Assembly (NCBI GenBank): GCA_025832235.1
Contig: GCA_025832235.1_3649.1
Direction: 5' to 3' (one strand)
DNA length: 64,000 bases
DNA from: a phage
Shown piece after piece: positions 3,790 to 64,000 of this stretch. Both the position numbers and the translations under genes were made by a program. The stretch's first letter is position 1; each line of letters opens with the position of its first letter. The notes beneath the pieces are model-generated. The model saw nothing but the letters and a program-made list of their open reading frames with translations, did no database searches and was not told where the DNA came from.

Positions 3790-4551
3790 ATGCGACGACT
3801 GATTATTATCTCCGGTGCTGGTTTGAGCGCTGAATCTGGTATTCCCACTTTCCGATCTGGTAGCACTGCAATGTGGGAGAATTTCAGCATCGATGAGGTG
3901 TGCAACATCCACACCTTTGCCAAGAACTACTACAAGGTGCATGACTTTTACAATGCACGTCGTGTAGCTCTAGGCGGTGTTGAGCCTAACCTTGCACATC
4001 TTCGGATCGCTGAGTGGTATTCCCGCTGGTCTGGTCGTGTGATCAACCTTACCACCAATGTAGATGATTTGCTGGAGCGTGCGGGTGTAAAACATGAAGA
4101 TATTTTACATGTTCACGGGTATTTGCCAGAAATAGTCTATGAGGACGATGAAGGAAGTGACGTCATTAAGGACATTGGATACTCTGAGGTAGATGCAGGA
4201 AAGTATACCTGGGTTAAACCTAATGTGGTGTTCTTCGGAGAAGTAGCTCCGAAGTATACAGACATGTATGACCTGTTGACTTCTCTTACAAGCAATGATA
4301 TGGTTATCCTTGTAGGGTGTTCCAACACAGTTATCAATTTTAACTGGGAGCTATTCCCTGCCTGCAATAAGGGAACCAAACTACTGATCGTTAATAAATA
4401 CGACTCACAGCATCTAGAGGAGAATGGCATTTCACGTAGTGATATTTACCAGTATGAGGATCGCGGCATCCCAGTTTGGTTTAACGGTGCGGTTGATGCC
4501 TTCTCTGATAAAACATTCATTGAGACCGTAGAAAACTTTATGGAACTTTAA
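3790..4551 (+). CDS. Sir2-family NAD-dependent deacylase / ADP-ribosyltransferase
   Basis: sirtuin signature GAGLSAESGIPTFRSG near N-terminus, later FFGE; GAGGA RBS. Confidence 0.8.
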   Translation: MRRLIIISGAGLSAESGIPTFRSGSTAMWENFSIDEVCNIHTFAKNYYKVHDFYNARRVALGGVEPNLAHLRIAEWYSRWSGRVINLTTNVDDLLERAGVKHEDILHVHGYLPEIVYEDDEGSDVIKDIGYSEVDAGKYTWVKPNVVFFGEVAPKYTDMYDLLTSLTSNDMVILVGCSNTVINFNWELFPACNKGTKLLIVNKYDSQHLEENGISRSDIYQYEDRGIPVWFNGAVDAFSDKTFIETVENFMEL

Positions 4552-34362: not shown

Positions 34363-34646
34363 TAATGAAAAAGATTAACAGTAGTGAAGTCGAGTTTAAA
34401 CTTGTCGGAAAAGGCACTTACTGGGAAGTTCGTCAAAAGGTATATTTGTTCGGTCTTATTCCTTACTGGTCTAAATTCTACTGGGGAGCTAACGAGTGGG
34501 GAAGATACGCCACCAAATCAATGGCACTTATTGGTATAGCAGAGTACATTGCAGCCAGAGATAGGGTTGGAGACACTTATTACTATACTGCGGACGATAT
34601 TCGTAACAGTGTTTACGTCCCACAACCACCTGATGGAGACCGTTGA
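34359..34646 (+). CDS. hypothetical protein
   Basis: ORF. Confidence 0.45.
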   Translation: MIMKKINSSEVEFKLVGKGTYWEVRQKVYLFGLIPYWSKFYWGANEWGRYATKSMALIGIAEYIAARDRVGDTYYYTADDIRNSVYVPQPPDGDR

Positions 34647-34870
34647 TGAAAGTTAAAGTTTTAGATTCGAGCTTCTATATTGGTCAGGAGCCCTTAGTGG
34701 GGAAAGTGTTTACTGCTGTCCCTAACGAAGATTACCCCGACCTTTTAAAAATAAAAGGGGCAGATCTTATTGCCGCTGGTGCATCTCAGGAATGCTTTGA
34801 CAGTCAGTGGACCTACAACTTTGCCCTAGGTGAGGATGTAGAGATAGTGGAGGACAATCATGAAGGTTAA
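34643..34870 (+). CDS. small acidic protein, family A (cassette copy 1, gene 1)
   Basis: MMKVKVLD...LLKIKGADLIAAGASQ...VEIVED. Confidence 0.5.
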   Translation: MMKVKVLDSSFYIGQEPLVGKVFTAVPNEDYPDLLKIKGADLIAAGASQECFDSQWTYNFALGEDVEIVEDNHEG

Positions 34871-35114
34871 AATTCTTGATTCTAACGTCTACTTGGGACA
34901 ATCCTTCCTGAAGGGAAAGGTCGTTCCTGCGGTATACTTTGAAGGGTTGCCGTGGGATGATCCTGTTCGGCAACATCACAGTTATGTAGGCCACAACGTA
35001 GTGTTTATCTTAGGAGCAGACCTGATCACCGCTGGTGCACCTGAATATTATTTCGGGGAAGAGTCCTATTATGCCTTTGGGGTAGGGTCAGATGCAAATA
35101 TTGTAGAGCTGTGA
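34860..35114 (+). CDS. small acidic protein, family A (cassette copy 1, gene 2)
   Basis: MKVKILD...FILGADLITAGAPE...ANIVEL. Confidence 0.5.
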   Translation: MKVKILDSNVYLGQSFLKGKVVPAVYFEGLPWDDPVRQHHSYVGHNVVFILGADLITAGAPEYYFGEESYYAFGVGSDANIVEL

Positions 35115-35126
35115 TGGGTAACCGTT

Positions 35127-35525
35127 GTGAAAAATAAACTGTTTAAAGTTACAATGAAAATTCGCGGAGCTTGGAGCATAAAGCAAGGGCGTATTCCAGA
35201 ATTTGAGAAAGACTTCTACGTAGTCTCCACCTCGGAGGAGGCTGCATGCTGGCAAGCTGGCTATGCCTATGCAAGAACCTGGTACGAAGGATACCAGACT
35301 GGGGGCTATGACGGAGAAATTATCAGCAAGGGTGTAGAAGAAATTAATGTGTTGACAAGTGAAAAAGTTTTTGTTATAGTGCATCCAGATTCCAGAGTGA
35401 AGCATTACTGGAATGCCAGAACAAAAACTTGGACACCGTTTGCAGATTCTGCTACACCACTTTTAAACCAGAAAGCTCTTGACTCTGTCCCGAGCTATGG
35501 GGTTGTTGAAGAAAAGCTAAACTGA
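35127..35525 (+). CDS. family B protein (cassette copy 1, gene 3)
   Basis: KVFVIVHPDSRVKHYWNARTKTWTP matches paralogue at 37332; GTG start supported by alignment. Confidence 0.5.
   Translation: MKNKLFKVTMKIRGAWSIKQGRIPEFEKDFYVVSTSEEAACWQAGYAYARTWYEGYQTGGYDGEIISKGVEEINVLTSEKVFVIVHPDSRVKHYWNARTKTWTPFADSATPLLNQKALDSVPSYGVVEEKLN
35352..35380 (+). promoter_or_regulatory. sigma70-like promoter inside coding sequence
   Basis: TTGACA 35352-35357, 17 bp spacer, TATAGT 35375-35380. Confidence 0.45.
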
Positions 35526-35542
35526 AACAGTGGGGTACTAAC

Positions 35543-35833
35543 ATGATGGATTTAGTTCTGGACACTGATAACACCGGAGCGTTTAAAAAGGATGGTGTAA
35601 CAAGCGTTGACCAATCCTTCCCTGCCAAGATTGACTCAAAATGGACCTACAAGTTTGATGGAGAGATCTTCGCAAATGATGAGAAGGTTGTAGATGCTGC
35701 AGCCATTTTGAACGCTCTAGGGTACGACCCTGTGAATTCTTTGATCAAGGATCCTGTTGAGTTTGCAGAGTATGTTCGAAAAATGGCAGATCTTGCTGTG
35801 GATATTTTAAAAACTATCGACAACAATCTGTAA
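35543..35833 (+). CDS. hypothetical acidic protein
   Basis: ORF. Confidence 0.45.
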   Translation: MMDLVLDTDNTGAFKKDGVTSVDQSFPAKIDSKWTYKFDGEIFANDEKVVDAAAILNALGYDPVNSLIKDPVEFAEYVRKMADLAVDILKTIDNNL

Positions 35834-35839
35834 AAACTG

Positions 35840-35868
35840 TTGACACAACGCTTCAGATTTAGTATCAT
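35840..35868 (+). promoter_or_regulatory. sigma70-like promoter of hpf-like gene
   Basis: TTGACA 35840-35845, 17 bp spacer, TATCAT; followed by 5' UTR hairpin AGAGGG-tttggtt-CCCTCT and AAAAGGAA RBS. Confidence 0.55.
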
Positions 35869-35915
35869 TGTTTTCAAAGAGGGTTTGGTTCCCTCTTCTT
35901 TAAAAGGAACACGTT

Positions 35916-36233
35916 ATGCAAATTGAAATCACTGGCAACGTAGAAATCACTGAAGGTATGGTGTCTTTCATTTCCAACAAAATGTCTAAACTGGAGCGTT
36001 TGCACCCCTCTGCCAACTATGCACGTGTGAGTGTAAAAGTTGAAAATGATCACCAGGAAGTTATGGCGTTCATTTTTGACAATTCTGGAAAAGAAGTTAT
36101 TGCCAAGGCTAAAGGTAGTGATGCTTACGAGGCAACTGACCGTATGGTAGATGTTGCAGCACGTCAGCTGGCTAAATGCGGTGGAAAGAAAGGTAAGGGG
36201 AAAGGCAAAGTAAAGATTGACTTTGGAAAATGA
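35916..36233 (+). CDS. hpf: ribosome hibernation promoting factor / RaiA-family protein (short form)
   Basis: MQIEITGNVEITEGM...KLERL...VSVKVE...G.EVIAKAKGSDAYEATDRMVDVAARQLAK aligns along whole length with E. coli HPF as recalled; lysine-rich tail. Confidence 0.75.
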   Translation: MQIEITGNVEITEGMVSFISNKMSKLERLHPSANYARVSVKVENDHQEVMAFIFDNSGKEVIAKAKGSDAYEATDRMVDVAARQLAKCGGKKGKGKGKVKIDFGK

Positions 36234-36370
36234 GGTGCTACAATGGGTGTGATTAAGAAATTAGTCCCAAATGTAGAGATTGCATGCTTTGAAATTATGT
36301 TTGCAATCGCAGTTGTAGTTAATGTGTTAGGTTACGGCTATTAATATCAAATAATTGAGGAGACCTCTAA

Positions 36371-36640
36371 ATGAAAATTAAATTATTCAAAACTGAGCTG
36401 GCAGACAAAAACTGTGGACTGGTTGAAGGCATGATTGTTGAAGCACAACCAGTGGACTATATGAAGGTGGTTCGTGATGCCCTGGGTGAAGGTTTTGATC
36501 TGATGGAGCCAGCTCTGCGAGAAGATGTTATCGAGATGGCTAAAAAGCACACACCTGAAGGTTTGGTGGTGTTTGTTGCACCGGGTAACGGAGAAGAATT
36601 GATTGTAACTCCTGATGTGTATGAGATTGTAGAGGAATAA
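36371..36640 (+). CDS. small acidic protein (MKIK...EIVEE class)
   Basis: MKIKLFK...LVVFVAPGNGEELIVTPDVYEIVEE. Confidence 0.5.
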   Translation: MKIKLFKTELADKNCGLVEGMIVEAQPVDYMKVVRDALGEGFDLMEPALREDVIEMAKKHTPEGLVVFVAPGNGEELIVTPDVYEIVEE

Positions 36641-36731
36641 TCCTGCTTGGATTAGCATACTTCCTCGATAAGGAAGATTTGTAATTATTTGTGGGAAAGG
36701 AATCCCAATCTCTTACCAGAGGTGATACTAT

Positions 36732-36995
36732 ATGATTGTTTATTTTAAAACTTCAGGTGGATACCCTGATTCTCAAAGCTTGATCGGAAAAACGTGCACA
36801 GCATACTCACCTCTTGATGAGGAGGTAAGCGATATTCTACGAAATATGTATCGGATTGACCCCCAAGAAGCCTTTGATCAAAACCTTGTATTTGTCAAGG
36901 GTTCAGATATGAAGTCTTTGGGAGCATTCCCTGAAGCAGATGATGATGCCGTTTATTCGTTCATGACTCCTTTTGAAGCTATGGTTGTTGGGTGA
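36732..36995 (+). CDS. small acidic protein, family A (cassette copy 2, gene 1)
   Basis: LVFVKGSDMKSLGAFPEADDD. Confidence 0.5.
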   Translation: MIVYFKTSGGYPDSQSLIGKTCTAYSPLDEEVSDILRNMYRIDPQEAFDQNLVFVKGSDMKSLGAFPEADDDAVYSFMTPFEAMVVG

Positions 36996-36999
36996 TAAT

Positions 37000-37332
37000 A
37001 TGAAAGTACGCTTTATTGGTGAAACAATTCCTGTGCATCTCCGGTCTCCTGAGGATTCTGCAGATCTTGCATCTCAAAAGGCGAGAGGTTATGATAAGAA
37101 AGTAACCTCAACCGATGTAGTGCTTGAGGCTACCAGTCTACCTGACCCTGCTGCATTCTTTAATCATTATGGGTACTATTTCAGCAATCTGATGAATATC
37201 GGTGAGCTTGTGTTTATTAGTGGTGGAGAGATTGTTAGCAAGCTTGGCGGCGATCCAGATGTCTTTCATGAAACCTGTCCTTTTGCATTTGTGGTAGGTT
37301 CAGATGTGGAAGTTATTGAGGAGGTGCGGTAA
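37000..37332 (+). CDS. small acidic protein, family A (cassette copy 2, gene 2)
   Basis: MKVRFIGE...FVVGSDVEVIEE; ATG 37000 just after upstream stop. Confidence 0.5.
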   Translation: MKVRFIGETIPVHLRSPEDSADLASQKARGYDKKVTSTDVVLEATSLPDPAAFFNHYGYYFSNLMNIGELVFISGGEIVSKLGGDPDVFHETCPFAFVVGSDVEVIEEVR

Positions 37333-37727
37333 TGGTAAGCCTATACCGTGTTGAGTATAGCTCAGATACTGTATACAACGTAAGAAGCAAAGATCGCAGC
37401 GACAGAGTGCAAGAAATGTATGTTCTTGCCGACAGTCCGTTATCTGCAGCGTTCAAGGCAGGGGCTCTTGCATCTCGTTGGAAATTTGAAGGGGGATCTT
37501 TCTATGAAGAAACCCTTGAAGATTCTGTTGTTATTTCTTCTGTAGAGGTTTCAGACGACTACGAAGGGAAAAAGTTCGTAATGCGGCACCCACACAGCAA
37601 CATTGCGTACTACTGGGATGTTCTGAACAACGAGTGGACCCCAGATCTTCAGAAGGCTACTGTGCTAACACCGTTTTTGGCAGATAAGTTCCCACCAGAA
37701 GGTAATTTATCCGCACTGTTTCAGTAA
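37332..37727 (+). CDS. family B protein (cassette copy 2, gene 3)
   Basis: KKFVMRHPHSNIAYYWDVLNNEWTP, paralogue of 35127. Confidence 0.5.
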   Translation: MVSLYRVEYSSDTVYNVRSKDRSDRVQEMYVLADSPLSAAFKAGALASRWKFEGGSFYEETLEDSVVISSVEVSDDYEGKKFVMRHPHSNIAYYWDVLNNEWTPDLQKATVLTPFLADKFPPEGNLSALFQ

Positions 37728-37744
37728 TTTTCTTGCACACAGGT

Positions 37745-37773
37745 GTTGACAACGCCAACCCTGTGTGAAATAA
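37745..37773 (+). promoter_or_regulatory. sigma70-like promoter
   Basis: TTGACA 37745-37750, 17 bp spacer, AATAAT. Confidence 0.4.
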
Positions 37774-37806
37774 TACCTTCATCTTAACAAGACAGGAGAC
37801 CGATTG

Positions 37807-38064
37807 ATGAAGATTAAATTGAAAAACCTTGAAACGGCAGAGATTCAGGACGGTGTTGATTTCCGTTCTAAAGATGGTGACATCTTAGAGGTAAATATTC
37901 CAACCTACGAGCTGATTAAAGGTTTTGGCAACGTTCCGGAAGAGGATATTACAGAAATTCTTATGATGTTGATTCTTGACGGAACTGTGTTTGTAGGTGA
38001 AGGTGAGAACGCTATTGCAATCCCAGGCCATTTTTATGAAGTAGTTGACGAAGAGGTGCTGTAA
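37807..38064 (+). CDS. small acidic protein
   Basis: ATG after AGGAGA RBS; MKIKLKNLE...YEVVDEEVL. Confidence 0.5.
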   Translation: MKIKLKNLETAEIQDGVDFRSKDGDILEVNIPTYELIKGFGNVPEEDITEILMMLILDGTVFVGEGENAIAIPGHFYEVVDEEVL

Positions 38065-38415
38065 ATGAAAGTAGAAATTACCGGTTTTGATGTGAATGTG
38101 GTTCCGGAAGATATTTTAGCTAAACTTCCAGAAGGTTTTGGTAACGGCGTTGTGGTGGATGCTGTTCCTCCTACCAAAGACATTCTGCTGCAGTATGGTG
38201 TAGCAGAGGAAGATGTCGATAAAGTTCTTACAATGATGGCAATCGATCGTGTTGTCGTTGTTAAAGGTCTCGATAATTTTGAGAGTGATCCCCTGATTAT
38301 TCGTGGAGATGACTACAAAATCATCGATAATGAAGGCCAAGAGTTCTATGAACCTTGTGCAGAAGATATTCTTAACTTATTACTGGAAGCAGGTACCGAA
38401 GAGGAGGACGAATAA
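38065..38415 (+). CDS. small acidic protein
   Basis: MKVEITGF...; acidic tail TEEEDE. Confidence 0.5.
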   Translation: MKVEITGFDVNVVPEDILAKLPEGFGNGVVVDAVPPTKDILLQYGVAEEDVDKVLTMMAIDRVVVVKGLDNFESDPLIIRGDDYKIIDNEGQEFYEPCAEDILNLLLEAGTEEEDE

Positions 38416-38744
38416 TGAAGATTGACCCGTTACTGAAGGCTCGTGCAGAAAAAGCGTACACCATTAAGCTGACCAACCTGGTTCCTACTTGTCATCCAGA
38501 TGTAGGTTGGCCTGAAGGTCTGGTAGAGGGGACTGTAACAGCTGCATACCTCCCTAACATCAAATACCTTATGGAAATCTTGGAGCTGGATGAGGAAACG
38601 GCAGAAGAGTTCCAGTTGGACATGAAACAAAGTGGGACTCTGGTTATTCACGGGTGGTATAATACTAAAGACGCAGAAGACCCTCTGGTAACTTCTAATC
38701 TGGCATATGAAATCTTAGGGCCTTTGAACCTGGAGGAAGACTAA
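38415..38744 (+). CDS. small acidic protein
   Basis: ORF, overlapping start/stop. Confidence 0.45.
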   Translation: MKIDPLLKARAEKAYTIKLTNLVPTCHPDVGWPEGLVEGTVTAAYLPNIKYLMEILELDEETAEEFQLDMKQSGTLVIHGWYNTKDAEDPLVTSNLAYEILGPLNLEED

Positions 38745-39031
38745 TGAAAGATCTGGTTAAGATTAAGATTAAAGATACCAATGGAGAACTCAGCCATTTT
38801 GGAATTAATGATGGTGACGAGCTGATCGCACACCTGCCTACCAAGGAGGTTGTAAGCAAAGCAGTTGCCGGAGAAGAAGCTGCAATGCAGGCTGCAGGTG
38901 TGGATGAAAACTATGTAGCTATGTGCATGTGCCGAGATCAGGTTGTTCTGTATAAAGCGTATCGACCAAACGGAGCCACGGAGTGGCTTGTATTCCGACC
39001 CGAAGGATATGAAATCTTAGAGGCACTATGA
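38744..39031 (+). CDS. small acidic protein
   Basis: ORF. Confidence 0.45.
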   Translation: MKDLVKIKIKDTNGELSHFGINDGDELIAHLPTKEVVSKAVAGEEAAMQAAGVDENYVAMCMCRDQVVLYKAYRPNGATEWLVFRPEGYEILEAL

Positions 39032-63282: not shown

Positions 63283-63558
63283 CAATAGTTCAGGTAGGTC
63301 GTTAAGCTACCCCGCACCATTACGTGCATAGCCATACGTTTTCACGTAGGATCGGACCATCTCATATTCCTATGATAAGCAACCACAGGAATCCTCCCAT
63401 TTCGACCGCACTTGCTGGTCTACTTCCTTTCGGAATGGCCTCTGAGCGTTCGCTCTTTTGAGCGCTTCGTTGCGGATTACCTTGCCATAAGGTTTAGGCT
63501 TCCCGCAGTTAAAGAGGTTATTCGACATAGATTACTCTATGAAGCCACAATGTTATTT
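63283..63558 (-). ncRNA. group I self-splicing intron in DNA polymerase gene (no internal ORF)
   Basis: 5' exon ends CAU, intron ends G; elements ACUGCGGGAAGCC (P), GUAAUCCGCAACG (Q), GUAGACCAGC (R) and GAGAUGGUCCG (S); length restores frame. Confidence 0.7.
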
Positions 63559-64000
63559 ATGGTAATAAATAATACGACGAACACCTTCATCGTACCACCC
63601 ACGCTTCACCATCTGGCGGTGCATGAGTATTCCAACTAAGTCACACAGCGATGCACCACCATTTTGTTGGTATGCATTAAGTAAAGAGTGTTTAGATCTG
63701 GTCCAGATAGCATGACCATCAAAAGAGTAGATAAACTTCTTACCCGTTGCTTCCCAGAATTTCTCCAGATCTTCTTTACGCCCCTTAAGACCAGGGTTGG
63801 CATCCCAGAGTGCATCGATTACCCTTTGTCCCAACTCTGGAGAGATGTCCAGCATATCTGCAACTTTATCTTTTTGTGCCCCATACATAACCCCATACGT
63901 GATAGGTTTACCGTCGTTACGGGAAATCTCCTTGCCTGCTACAGAAGAGTAAGCTTTGGCGTTATTACAGTTACCGCACACTGCCACTTTACCATTCCTT
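63559..64000 (-). CDS. family A DNA polymerase, 5' exon (partial, continues beyond window end)
   Basis: motif B-like region ...AKAYSSV...YGVMYGAQ... and NAYQQNGGASLCDL; ends ...VRRIIYYH at the splice site. Confidence 0.7.

What the first reader, a model, noticed from the sequence alone, without database searches (positions are those of the whole stretch)
35840..36233. Phage-encoded ribosome hibernation factor (HPF/RaiA) homologue with its own strong promoter
The 105-aa product aligns along its whole length with short-form bacterial HPF as I recall it (MQ.EITGN.VEITE...KLE...V.VKVE...G.E..A.A.G.D.Y.A.D...ARQL.K). It has a dedicated TTGACA-17-TATCAT promoter and a 5' UTR hairpin. A phage copy could shut down or protect host ribosomes during takeover.
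Basis: partly seen in the sequence, partly recalled or inferred. Interest (0 to 1): 0.6.

Follow-up and report, generated by a model that had tools for sequence, protein, structure and literature searches.

The report
Known rV5-phage ribosome hibernation factor homologue
This is a real phage copy of the bacterial ribosome hibernation factor HPF with its own early promoter, but it is the already annotated and published gp144 of rV5-like coliphages, and its role in infection is still unproven.

Summary
[quoted passage not shown] TTGACA-17-TATCAT sits at 35840-35868.

The 5' UTR hairpin exists but is weak, not better than shuffles and not conserved.

The window is a Vequintavirus (rV5-like coliphage). 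The gene is rV5 ORF144 (ABI79209), annotated in GenBank with promoter P144. Mizuno et al. 2019 listed it as a phage HPF and tested it. Expressed in E. coli, it was not found in salt-washed 70S/100S ribosomes and did not change 100S levels. Mathieu et al. 2020 noted it again.

What I add:
- Strong purifying selection (dN/dS 0.04-0.14).
- Phage-like GC content.
- Syntenic retention in a second lineage at 64% identity.
- Presence in about 118 of 120 Vequintavirus records and absence from sister genera.
- A partly remodelled ribosome-contact surface (K26, R83, K87, K91 kept; R17, K80, K89, T53, H55 lost).
- A conserved, disordered polybasic tail (pI 9.2).

Verdict: already known, mechanism open, low novelty.

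The parts
35840..35868 (+). Sigma-70-type early promoter: TTGACA (35840-35845), 17-nt spacer, TATCAT (35863-35868). It equals promoter P144 of phage rV5.
   Evidence: Sequence and scan, 11/12 match. Annotated as 'Sigma70-type promoter; P144' in DQ832317. The -35 hexamer and its flanks are invariant in 8 phages. This promoter class is enriched on the coding strand, 6 observed against 0.18 expected.
35877..35897 (+). 5' UTR stem-loop AAGAGGG-tttggtt-CCCTCTT. Real but weak and not conserved.
   Evidence: MFE -9.9 kcal/mol, z = -0.92 against shuffles. One-sided disruption in V18 and A141, and absent in the L002 lineage.
35904..35909 (+). Shine-Dalgarno sequence AAGGAA, 6 nt upstream of the ATG.
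   Evidence: Read from the sequence. Conserved in the Vequintavirus alignment.
35916..36233 (+). CDS of the phage HPF homologue (105 aa plus stop). It equals rV5 ORF144 / gp144 (ABI79209), phrog_12469.
   Evidence: dN/dS is 0.04-0.14.
35916..36179 (+). Folded S30AE/HPF core (residues 1-88): strands at 2-7, 33-42, 47-55 and 60-67; helices at 13-29 and 70-88.
   Evidence: AlphaFold2 with a 21-sequence alignment, mean pLDDT 84.9 and above 90 in the core. Foldseek TM 0.86-0.92, rmsd 1.1-1.5 A to V. cholerae and E. coli HPF.
36180..36230 (+). Disordered polybasic C-terminal tail. Residues 88-105 read CGGKKGKGKGKVKIDFGK, with a net charge of +6.
   Evidence: pLDDT below 50 for residues 90-101. Nearly invariant across the Vequintavirus sequences examined. 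Charge and pI.
36243..36344 (+). Downstream 33-aa hydrophobic ORF (rV5 ORF145, phrog_15151). Its GAGGTG Shine-Dalgarno sequence overlaps the HPF stop codon, so it probably lies in the same transcription unit.
   Evidence: Sequence, rV5 annotation, PHROG hit. Absent from the divergent L002 lineage.

Best explanation
The locus is the early-expressed hpf homologue (gp144) of a Vequintavirus.

Shown:
- It encodes a well-folded short-form HPF/RaiA-family domain with a disordered polybasic tail.
- A near-consensus sigma-70 promoter and a good ribosome-binding site precede it.
- It has been inherited vertically under strong purifying selection.

Inferred: unmodified host RNA polymerase transcribes it straight after genome entry. 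The product most likely docks, as cellular HPF and RaiA do, in the tRNA/mRNA channel between head and body of vacant host 30S/70S ribosomes. It would use the retained helix residues K25 (E. coli HPF K26), R83, K87 and K91, helped by the lysine-rich tail. That would cap idle ribosomes. The likeliest benefit is keeping the non-renewable host ribosome pool intact and shielded from ribonucleases or ribosome-directed stress responses, or damping initiation, during takeover, especially in slow-growing or starved gut hosts.

Binding is probably weaker or more conditional than for host HPF, because several conserved contact residues are lost. That fits the published failure to recover the protein from salt-washed ribosomes.
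For: - Family and fold: Pfam PF02482 E = 1.1e-12. TIGR00741 above its cut-off. Best PDB sequence hits are E. coli HPF 2rql, 4v8h and 6h4n. AF2 model pLDDT 84.9 with HPF topology. The 36 best Foldseek hits are all hibernation factors, many of them solved on ribosomes.
- Contact residues: K26, Q29 (R in the phage protein), E60, R83, K87 and K91 equivalents are kept. The contact list comes from bioRxiv 10.1101/2025.10.07.680626 and from mutagenesis of the helix basic residues in S. aureus HPF (PMC4889938).
- Expression signals.
- Selection and age: dN/dS 0.04-0.14 within the genus and synonymous sites saturated against the 64%-identical syntenic lineage. GC 41.8%, GC3 37.7%, as in the neighbouring phage genes.
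- Distribution: found in 118 phage records, against 120 records with a Vequintavirus-grade NrdA.
- Precedent for a protective role: hibernation factors block ribonucleases from entering the ribosome (PMC7913689, abstract).
Against: - The only experiment is negative. rV5 HPF expressed from pBAD24 in E. coli NM522 was detected in crude extract but not in purified 70S/100S fractions, and 100S levels were unchanged (PMC6375957). The authors themselves list growth phase, the stringent salt wash or real loss of binding as possible reasons.
- Basic residues conserved in most cellular homologues are lost in both phage lineages: R17 to V, K80 to V/T, K89 to G/S. The beta3 contacts T53 and H55 are F/R and F.
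- The protein scores far below NCBI's cut-off for the E. coli-type HPF equivalog, 56 against 125 bits.
- No transcript, timing or knock-out data exist for this gene in the searchable literature.
Confidence: 0.55

Rival explanations
1. Anti-hibernation or RaiA-like antagonist. The phage protein competes with host HPF and RaiA for the same site. Through weak, readily reversible binding, and/or a tail that runs toward the RMF site, it prevents or dissolves 100S dimers. Ribosomes of stationary-phase hosts would then stay, or become, available for phage mRNAs.
For: - The tail is 10 residues longer than that of E. coli HPF. In RaiA the extended tail heads toward the RMF site.
- Loss of K80, K89 and R17 predicts lower affinity.
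- No increase in 100S and no stable association in Mizuno et al..
Against: - The sequence is much closer to HPF than to RaiA (56 against 18 bits; 42% against 25% identity).
- Basic tails of similar length occur in many cellular short HPFs, so the tail does not discriminate.
- A bound factor would still block the A and P sites.
- There is no direct evidence.
Confidence: 0.15
2. Neofunctionalised fold. The protein no longer acts on the ribosome's decoding site. It uses the S30AE fold plus the polybasic tail to bind another RNA or a host protein, for example as a decoy or regulator.
For: - The negative ribosome-association result.
- The remodelled contact surface and the shift from acidic or neutral (pI 6.0-6.5) to strongly basic (pI 9.2).
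- An isolated sequence clade: apart from the 64% lineage, no protein among 1.84 billion representatives scores better than E = 3e-7.
- Precedent: S. aureus HPF also binds the metabolic protein YwlG (PMC9522360, abstract).
Against: - The most critical conserved residues are retained: R83, which contacts m4C1402, plus K87, K91 and K26.
- The core superposes on ribosome-bound HPF at 1.2 A.
- No alternative partner is suggested by the gene neighbourhood, which consists only of proteins of unknown function.
Confidence: 0.2
3. A functionless passenger: a recently captured host gene that is decaying in the phage genome.
For: The lack of phenotype on over-expression. Mizuno et al. suggested a 'relatively recent' transfer.
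Against: - dN/dS is 0.04-0.14, with an intact ORF in all 118 phage records.
- Composition is fully phage-like.
- The gene is only 42% identical to host HPF.
- It is kept at the same locus, with the same promoter, in a lineage whose synonymous sites are saturated.
Confidence: 0.03

Closest known systems
rV5 gp144 / ORF144 (ABI79209), the 'sigma 54 modulation factor' or 'ribosome hibernation factor' of Vequintavirus phages (Kropinski et al. 2013, PMC3606486; Mizuno et al. 2019, PMC6375957; Mathieu et al. 2020, PMC6969025)
   Same: The same gene. The protein is 98% identical, differing only at N21H and K105E. It has the same promoter P144, the same neighbours and the same genome position.
   Different: Nothing of substance. 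The window comes from a phage 99.8% identical to pangalan and MaxTheCat rather than from rV5 itself.
E. coli / gammaproteobacterial short HPF (YhbH; PDB 2RQL, 4V8H, 6H4N)
   Same: - Single S30AE domain of similar length, 42% identity and the same fold (TM 0.84-0.86, rmsd 1.2-1.5 A).
- N-terminal MQxxITG-NVEITE and helix-2 ARQL-K motifs.
- K26, E60, R83, K87 and K91 equivalents.
   Different: - Scores 56 bits against the 125-bit cut-off of the HPF equivalog model.
- R17, K80, K89, T53, H55 and H62 are replaced.
- Has a Lys/Gly-rich tail 10 residues longer, and pI 9.2 against 6.5.
- Driven by a constitutive-looking sigma-70 phage early promoter. From my own knowledge, host hpf sits in the rpoN operon and is induced in stationary phase.
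- No 100S promotion was seen on expression.
E. coli RaiA (YfiA, protein Y; PDB 1N3G, 4V8I)
   Same: The same fold and the same predicted binding site. Both have a C-terminal extension beyond the HPF length. GenBank/RefSeq names many of these phage genes 'RaiA'.
   Different: Only 25% identity and 18 bits against the RaiA model, whose cut-off is 158. RaiA's tail is acidic (net -4) whereas the phage tail is polybasic (net +6).
Other phage S30AE proteins (phrog_8990; for example Cronobacter phage GAP32 AFC21633)
   Same: Phage-encoded HPF-family proteins in large myoviruses.
   Different: A separate PHROG family: E = 9e-7 against 3.9e-70 for the query's own phrog_12469. According to Mizuno et al., an independent acquisition that clusters elsewhere in the HPF tree.

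Membership tests
HPF/RaiA (Ribosomal_S30AE, PF02482; TIGR00741) | Significant match to the curated family profile, above its cut-off, over the full domain | tested here: met
   PF02482 scores 48.9 bits (gathering score 23.7), covering residues 3-88 against profile positions 1-83 of 88. TIGR00741 scores 46.1 bits (cut-off 40.9).
HPF/RaiA (Ribosomal_S30AE, PF02482; TIGR00741) | [quoted passage not shown] | tested here: met
   The AF2 model (pLDDT 84.9) has elements E2-7, H13-29, E33-42, E47-55, E60-67 and H70-88. Foldseek gives TM 0.86-0.92 to HPF structures 4HEI and 6H4N, and the top 36 hits are all from this family.
HPF/RaiA (Ribosomal_S30AE, PF02482; TIGR00741) | Conserved basic ribosome-contact residues of helices 1 and 2 (E. 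coli HPF K26, K80, R83, K87, K91, plus K89 and R17) | tested here: inconclusive
   K26, R83, K87 and K91 are kept. K80 becomes V, K89 becomes G and R17 becomes V. These positions are K/R in about 18 of 23 cellular homologues compared. The contact list comes from the paper read.
HPF/RaiA (Ribosomal_S30AE, PF02482; TIGR00741) | Binds the 30S decoding channel of 70S ribosomes and blocks translation | not testable with these tools
   The published test was negative or inconclusive: the protein was not detected by MS in salt-washed 70S/100S fractions of E. coli expressing rV5 HPF (PMC6375957).
Enterobacterial short HPF equivalog (NCBIfam NF007780 / PRK10470) | Score above the equivalog cut-off | tested here: not met
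   56.2 bits against a cut-off of 125. HPF is the best-matching subfamily, but the phage protein is not an equivalog.
Enterobacterial short HPF equivalog (NCBIfam NF007780 / PRK10470) | Promotes maturation of RMF-induced 90S dimers into 100S | not testable with these tools
   Mizuno et al. saw no discernible effect on 100S particles.
RaiA / YfiA equivalog (NCBIfam NF007654 / PRK10324) | Score above the equivalog cut-off, and the RaiA-type C-terminal tail | tested here: not met
   18.2 bits against a cut-off of 158. Identity is 25%, and the tail has opposite charge. The RefSeq name 'RaiA' for these phage genes is therefore imprecise.
Long-form HPF (with C-terminal dimerisation domain) | A second, C-terminal dimerisation domain of about 60-90 residues | tested here: not met
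   The protein ends at residue 105, and residues 90-105 are disordered.

The most novel reading that the evidence does not exclude
The phage protein is not a hibernation promoter. It is a remodelled, weak-binding, polybasic 'placeholder' that competes with host HPF, RaiA and RMF. It would keep or make ribosomes of stationary-phase or starved gut E. coli available for phage translation, or shield them from a ribosome-directed defence. That would make it a viral anti-hibernation factor. This reading would explain both the lost contact residues and the published absence of stable ribosome association and of any 100S increase.
Probability: 0.15. Interest if true: 0.65.

Novelty: already known. Interest (0 to 1): 0.2.

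Why it matters
Ribosomes cannot be replaced once a lytic phage has shut down host rRNA synthesis. A virus-encoded factor that caps, protects or re-mobilises ribosomes would therefore be a direct handle on how phages manage translation capacity, particularly in slow-growing gut hosts, where rV5-like phages are common and are used for biocontrol.

The existence of the gene is not new. It has been in GenBank since the rV5 record and was analysed in Nat Commun 2019. What remains open, and testable, is whether it binds ribosomes at all during infection.

The points added here sharpen that question:
- Strict purifying selection.
- Ancient vertical inheritance in two lineages.
- A specifically remodelled contact surface.
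- A conserved polybasic tail.

Together they argue that the published negative result reflects the assay conditions or an altered mode of action, not a dead gene.

Tried and rejected
- **Hairpin as a regulatory element: rejected.** It folds no better than shuffles, shows only uncompensated changes, and is missing in the divergent lineage. No Rfam family matches the region. It is not a shared feature of the other strong promoters in the window, and the terminator scan did not call it.
- **Second promoter-like site at 36217-36244: probably chance.** This TTGACT-16-TACAAT match overlaps the 3' end of the gene, and its -10 runs into the ATG of ORF145, which has its own Shine-Dalgarno sequence.
- **Operon context: uninformative.** All ten neighbouring ORFs have no Pfam hit and only PHROGs of unknown function.
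- **Wider search for phage relatives: little gained.** The word-indexed protein search gave only 5 hits. The exhaustive representative search gave one close cluster, then only cellular HPFs at 45% identity or less. The IMG/VR scan returned 2 further rV5-like contigs only.
- **P0006: a spurious hit.** This 1160-aa protein with 8 matched stretches is driven by repeats and is not an HPF.
- **Literature on function, timing or essentiality: nothing found.** I searched for Vequintavirus transcriptomics, CRISPRi-ART on phage EdH4, and phage-encoded hibernation factors. Nothing turned up beyond Mizuno 2019 and Mathieu 2020.
- **Salt-wash statement: not confirmed.** I looked for an explicit statement that a high-salt wash strips HPF, RMF and RaiA, and did not find one in the papers opened. 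That point rests on the caveat given by Mizuno et al. themselves and on my own recollection of the Wada-laboratory protocols.
- **Minus-strand ORFs under the gene: not pursued.** ORFs 35874-36053 and 35647-35877 were set aside because selection clearly acts in the + frame.

Full report
**What is in the sequence**

The window carries an ATG-initiated ORF at 35916..36233 on the + strand encoding 105 residues. Upstream lie TTGACA (35840-35845), a 17-nt spacer and TATCAT (35863-35868). Then come a 7-bp stem-loop (35877-35897) and an AAGGAA Shine-Dalgarno sequence (35904-35909), 6 nt before the ATG.

**Is it more than chance?**

For the gene, yes.
- Pfam Ribosomal_S30AE matches residues 3-88 at 48.9 bits, against a gathering score of 23.7 (E = 1.1e-12).
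- NCBIfam TIGR00741 (HPF/YfiA family) scores 46.1 bits, against a cut-off of 40.9.
- phmmer against PDB sequences puts E. coli HPF (2RQL, 4V8H, 6H4N) first, at E of about 6e-12, aligned from residue 1 to 89 in both proteins.

For the promoter, yes. Sites matching at least 11 of 12 consensus positions occur 6 times on the + strand of 30-42 kb and never on the - strand. Simulated sequences of the same dinucleotide make-up give 0.18 on average and at most 2.

For the hairpin, no. Its -9.9 kcal/mol is within the range of shuffles (z = -0.92). Phages V18 and A141 carry an uncompensated change in the stem, and a divergent lineage lacks the hairpin entirely.

**Where the window comes from, and what is already known**

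The 2-kb region is 99.8% identical to Escherichia phages pangalan, MaxTheCat and CarlMeissner, and 97.4% identical to phage rV5, so the window is a Vequintavirus. In the rV5 record the gene is ORF144 (ABI79209, 'sigma 54 modulation factor'), and the promoter is annotated as 'Sigma70-type promoter; P144'. Other records name it ribosome hibernation factor, hpf, RaiA or PSrp-1. A few mis-name it 'ATP-dependent protease La'.

Mizuno et al. 2019 (PMC6375957) listed rV5, FV3, JES-2013, typing phage 14 and FFH2 as HPF-encoding phages. They placed the proteins among gammaproteobacterial HPFs and expressed rV5 HPF from pBAD24 in E. coli. The protein was detected in crude extract but not in purified 70S/100S ribosomes, and 100S levels were unchanged. 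The authors named growth phase, real loss of binding or the stringent salt wash as possible causes. Mathieu et al. 2020 (PMC6969025) again reported hpf as an auxiliary gene of five rV5-like gut phages. I found no later functional, transcriptomic or knock-down study of it. The finding is therefore already known, and its function is unresolved.

**Structure**

A single-sequence AlphaFold2 run gave the right topology at modest confidence (pLDDT 66.6). With a 21-sequence alignment the model reached pLDDT 84.9, above 90 through the core. Its elements are beta1 (2-7), alpha1 (13-29), beta2 (33-42), beta3 (47-55), beta4 (60-67) and alpha2 (70-88), followed by a disordered tail from residue 90. Foldseek against the PDB returns only HPF, RaiA, pY and long-HPF N-domains in the first 36 places. 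The best are V. cholerae HPF (TM 0.90-0.92, rmsd 1.1-1.3 A) and E. coli HPF on the 100S ribosome (TM 0.86, rmsd 1.2 A).

**Which subfamily?**

The protein is 42% identical to E. coli HPF and 25% identical to RaiA. It scores 56 bits on the HPF equivalog model and 18 bits on the RaiA model, but both are far below their cut-offs of 125 and 158. It is therefore an HPF-derived but divergent member of the family. It is neither an equivalog of host HPF nor a RaiA, despite the RefSeq name.

**Evolution**

- Pairs of Vequintavirus genes with dS above 0.1 give dN/dS of 0.04-0.14.
- A second lineage (P0004, 64% identity) sits at the syntenic position in 125-137 kb contigs that are collinear with window 31.9-40.0 kb. 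Its neighbouring proteins are 45-83% identical. Synonymous sites between the two lineages are saturated, yet the -35 hexamer with its flanks (aaactgTTGACAca) is identical.
- GC (41.8%) and GC3 (37.7%) match the neighbouring phage genes.
- Apart from that lineage, the best match among 1.84 billion representative proteins is a 45%-identical enterobacterial-type HPF at E = 3e-7.
- In the phage collection the gene is found in 118 phage records. A Vequintavirus-grade NrdA (at least 95% identity) is found in 120. The 62 sister-genus records with NrdA at 80-90% identity have no HPF hit.

Together these results indicate an old capture near the base of the genus that has been maintained by selection. 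It is not a recent passenger.

**The contact surface**

A recent cryo-EM comparison of Gram-negative HPF and YfiA complexes names K80, R83, K87 and K91 (plus K89) on helix 2 as the strictly conserved basic contacts. It also names T53/H62 (contacting m2G966), H55/E60 (contacting the uS9 C-terminus) and K26/Q29 (contacting the 1496-1498 backbone) (10.1101/2025.10.07.680626). Mutagenesis in S. aureus supports the role of the helix basic residues (PMC4889938).

Mapped onto the phage protein:
- K26, R83, K87, K91 and E60 are kept, and Q29 is R.
- K80 is V (T in the second lineage), K89 is G (S), R17 is V, T53 is F (R), H55 is F and H62 is I (M).
- The lost basic positions are K or R in about 18 of 23 cellular homologues compared.

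In exchange, the phage protein carries the tail CGGKKGKGKGKVKIDFGK (net +6). This raises its pI to 9.2, against 6.5 for HPF and 6.0 for RaiA. The tail is nearly invariant in the genus. Basic tails of similar length do occur in cellular short HPFs, so the tail on its own is not diagnostic.

**Most likely mechanism**

*Shown:* an HPF-fold protein under selection, preceded by a near-consensus host-type promoter and a good ribosome-binding site, in a block of small early-type genes.

*Inferred:* early transcription by host RNA polymerase. The product then docks in the 30S decoding channel of vacant ribosomes through R83, K87, K91 and K26, aided electrostatically by the tail. This would cap and protect idle ribosomes or damp initiation during takeover. 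The precedent is that hibernation factors block ribonuclease access to the ribosome (PMC7913689).

The lost contacts suggest weaker or conditional binding, which would reconcile this model with the negative salt-washed preparation of Mizuno et al. I give this 0.55.

*Rivals:*
- An anti-hibernation or RaiA-like antagonist (0.15).
- A neofunctionalised fold with a non-ribosomal target (0.2).
- A dead passenger (0.03, effectively excluded).

**Context**

The ten neighbouring ORFs have no Pfam match and fall only in PHROGs of unknown function, so the operon gives no functional hint. A 33-aa hydrophobic ORF (36243-36344) follows directly, with its Shine-Dalgarno sequence overlapping the hpf stop codon. 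It is absent from the second lineage.

**Verdict**

The promoter is real but one of many, and the hairpin is insignificant. Novelty is 'already known' and interest is low (0.2). What remains worthwhile is the unresolved mechanism. The residue-level and evolutionary observations above give specific, testable predictions for it.

Noticed in passing
window 63333-63568 (- strand): Rfam group I catalytic intron (RF00028) matched over the full model, at 64.7 bits against a gathering score of 50 (E = 4e-14). I did not determine which gene it interrupts.
   Followed up: no
window 34643-39031 (+ strand): A run of about nine small acidic ORFs: 34643-34870, 34860-35114, 36371-36640, 36732-36995, 36973-37332, 37804-38064, 38065-38415, 38415-38744 and 38744-39031. 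They share MK(I/V)K-type N-termini and ...YE(I/V)(V/I)E-type C-termini, which looks like a paralogous expansion of early proteins. Those scanned fall in separate PHROGs of unknown function.
   Followed up: partly
window 35127-35525 and 37332-37727 (+ strand): Two ORFs of 131-132 aa (rV5 ORF142 and ORF149) are paralogues. Both match phrog_7379 (unknown function) end to end, at E = 1e-73 and 2e-66. The first is missing from the divergent L002 lineage.
   Followed up: partly
GenBank MG0656xx records (for example L009 = MG065672.1 104953-106010): Eighteen 'UNVERIFIED: Campylobacter phage' records, host given as C. jejuni, are more than 95% identical to this E. coli Vequintavirus region. NCBI classifies them under Vequintavirus. 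The host label is probably wrong, or the records stem from contamination.
   Followed up: no
L002-L005 (Logan and ENA contigs of 125-137 kb), gene at 4001-4312: A Vequintavirus-like lineage that is not in the INPHARED phage collection. It carries a 64%-identical HPF at the syntenic locus, with a different basic tail (KYSKSKGIDKRTAKWDY), the same -35 region, no 5' hairpin and no ORF145.
   Followed up: partly
window 36217-36244 (+ strand): A promoter-like TTGACT-16-TACAAT site with an extended -10 TG overlaps the last codons of hpf and runs into the ATG of the 33-aa ORF145. It is probably a chance match, since ORF145 has its own GAGGTG Shine-Dalgarno sequence.
   Followed up: no
GenBank records MT884008-MT884011 and OR062528: In these rV5-like genomes the hpf homologue is annotated 'ATP-dependent protease La type I', an evident annotation error.
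   Followed up: no
protein P0006 (1160 aa, representative library): The second-best hit of the exhaustive search (E = 6e-9, 8 stretches) is a tandem-repeat protein. It matches only query residues 35-81 and has no HPF features, so it is a repeat-inflated false positive.
   Followed up: partly
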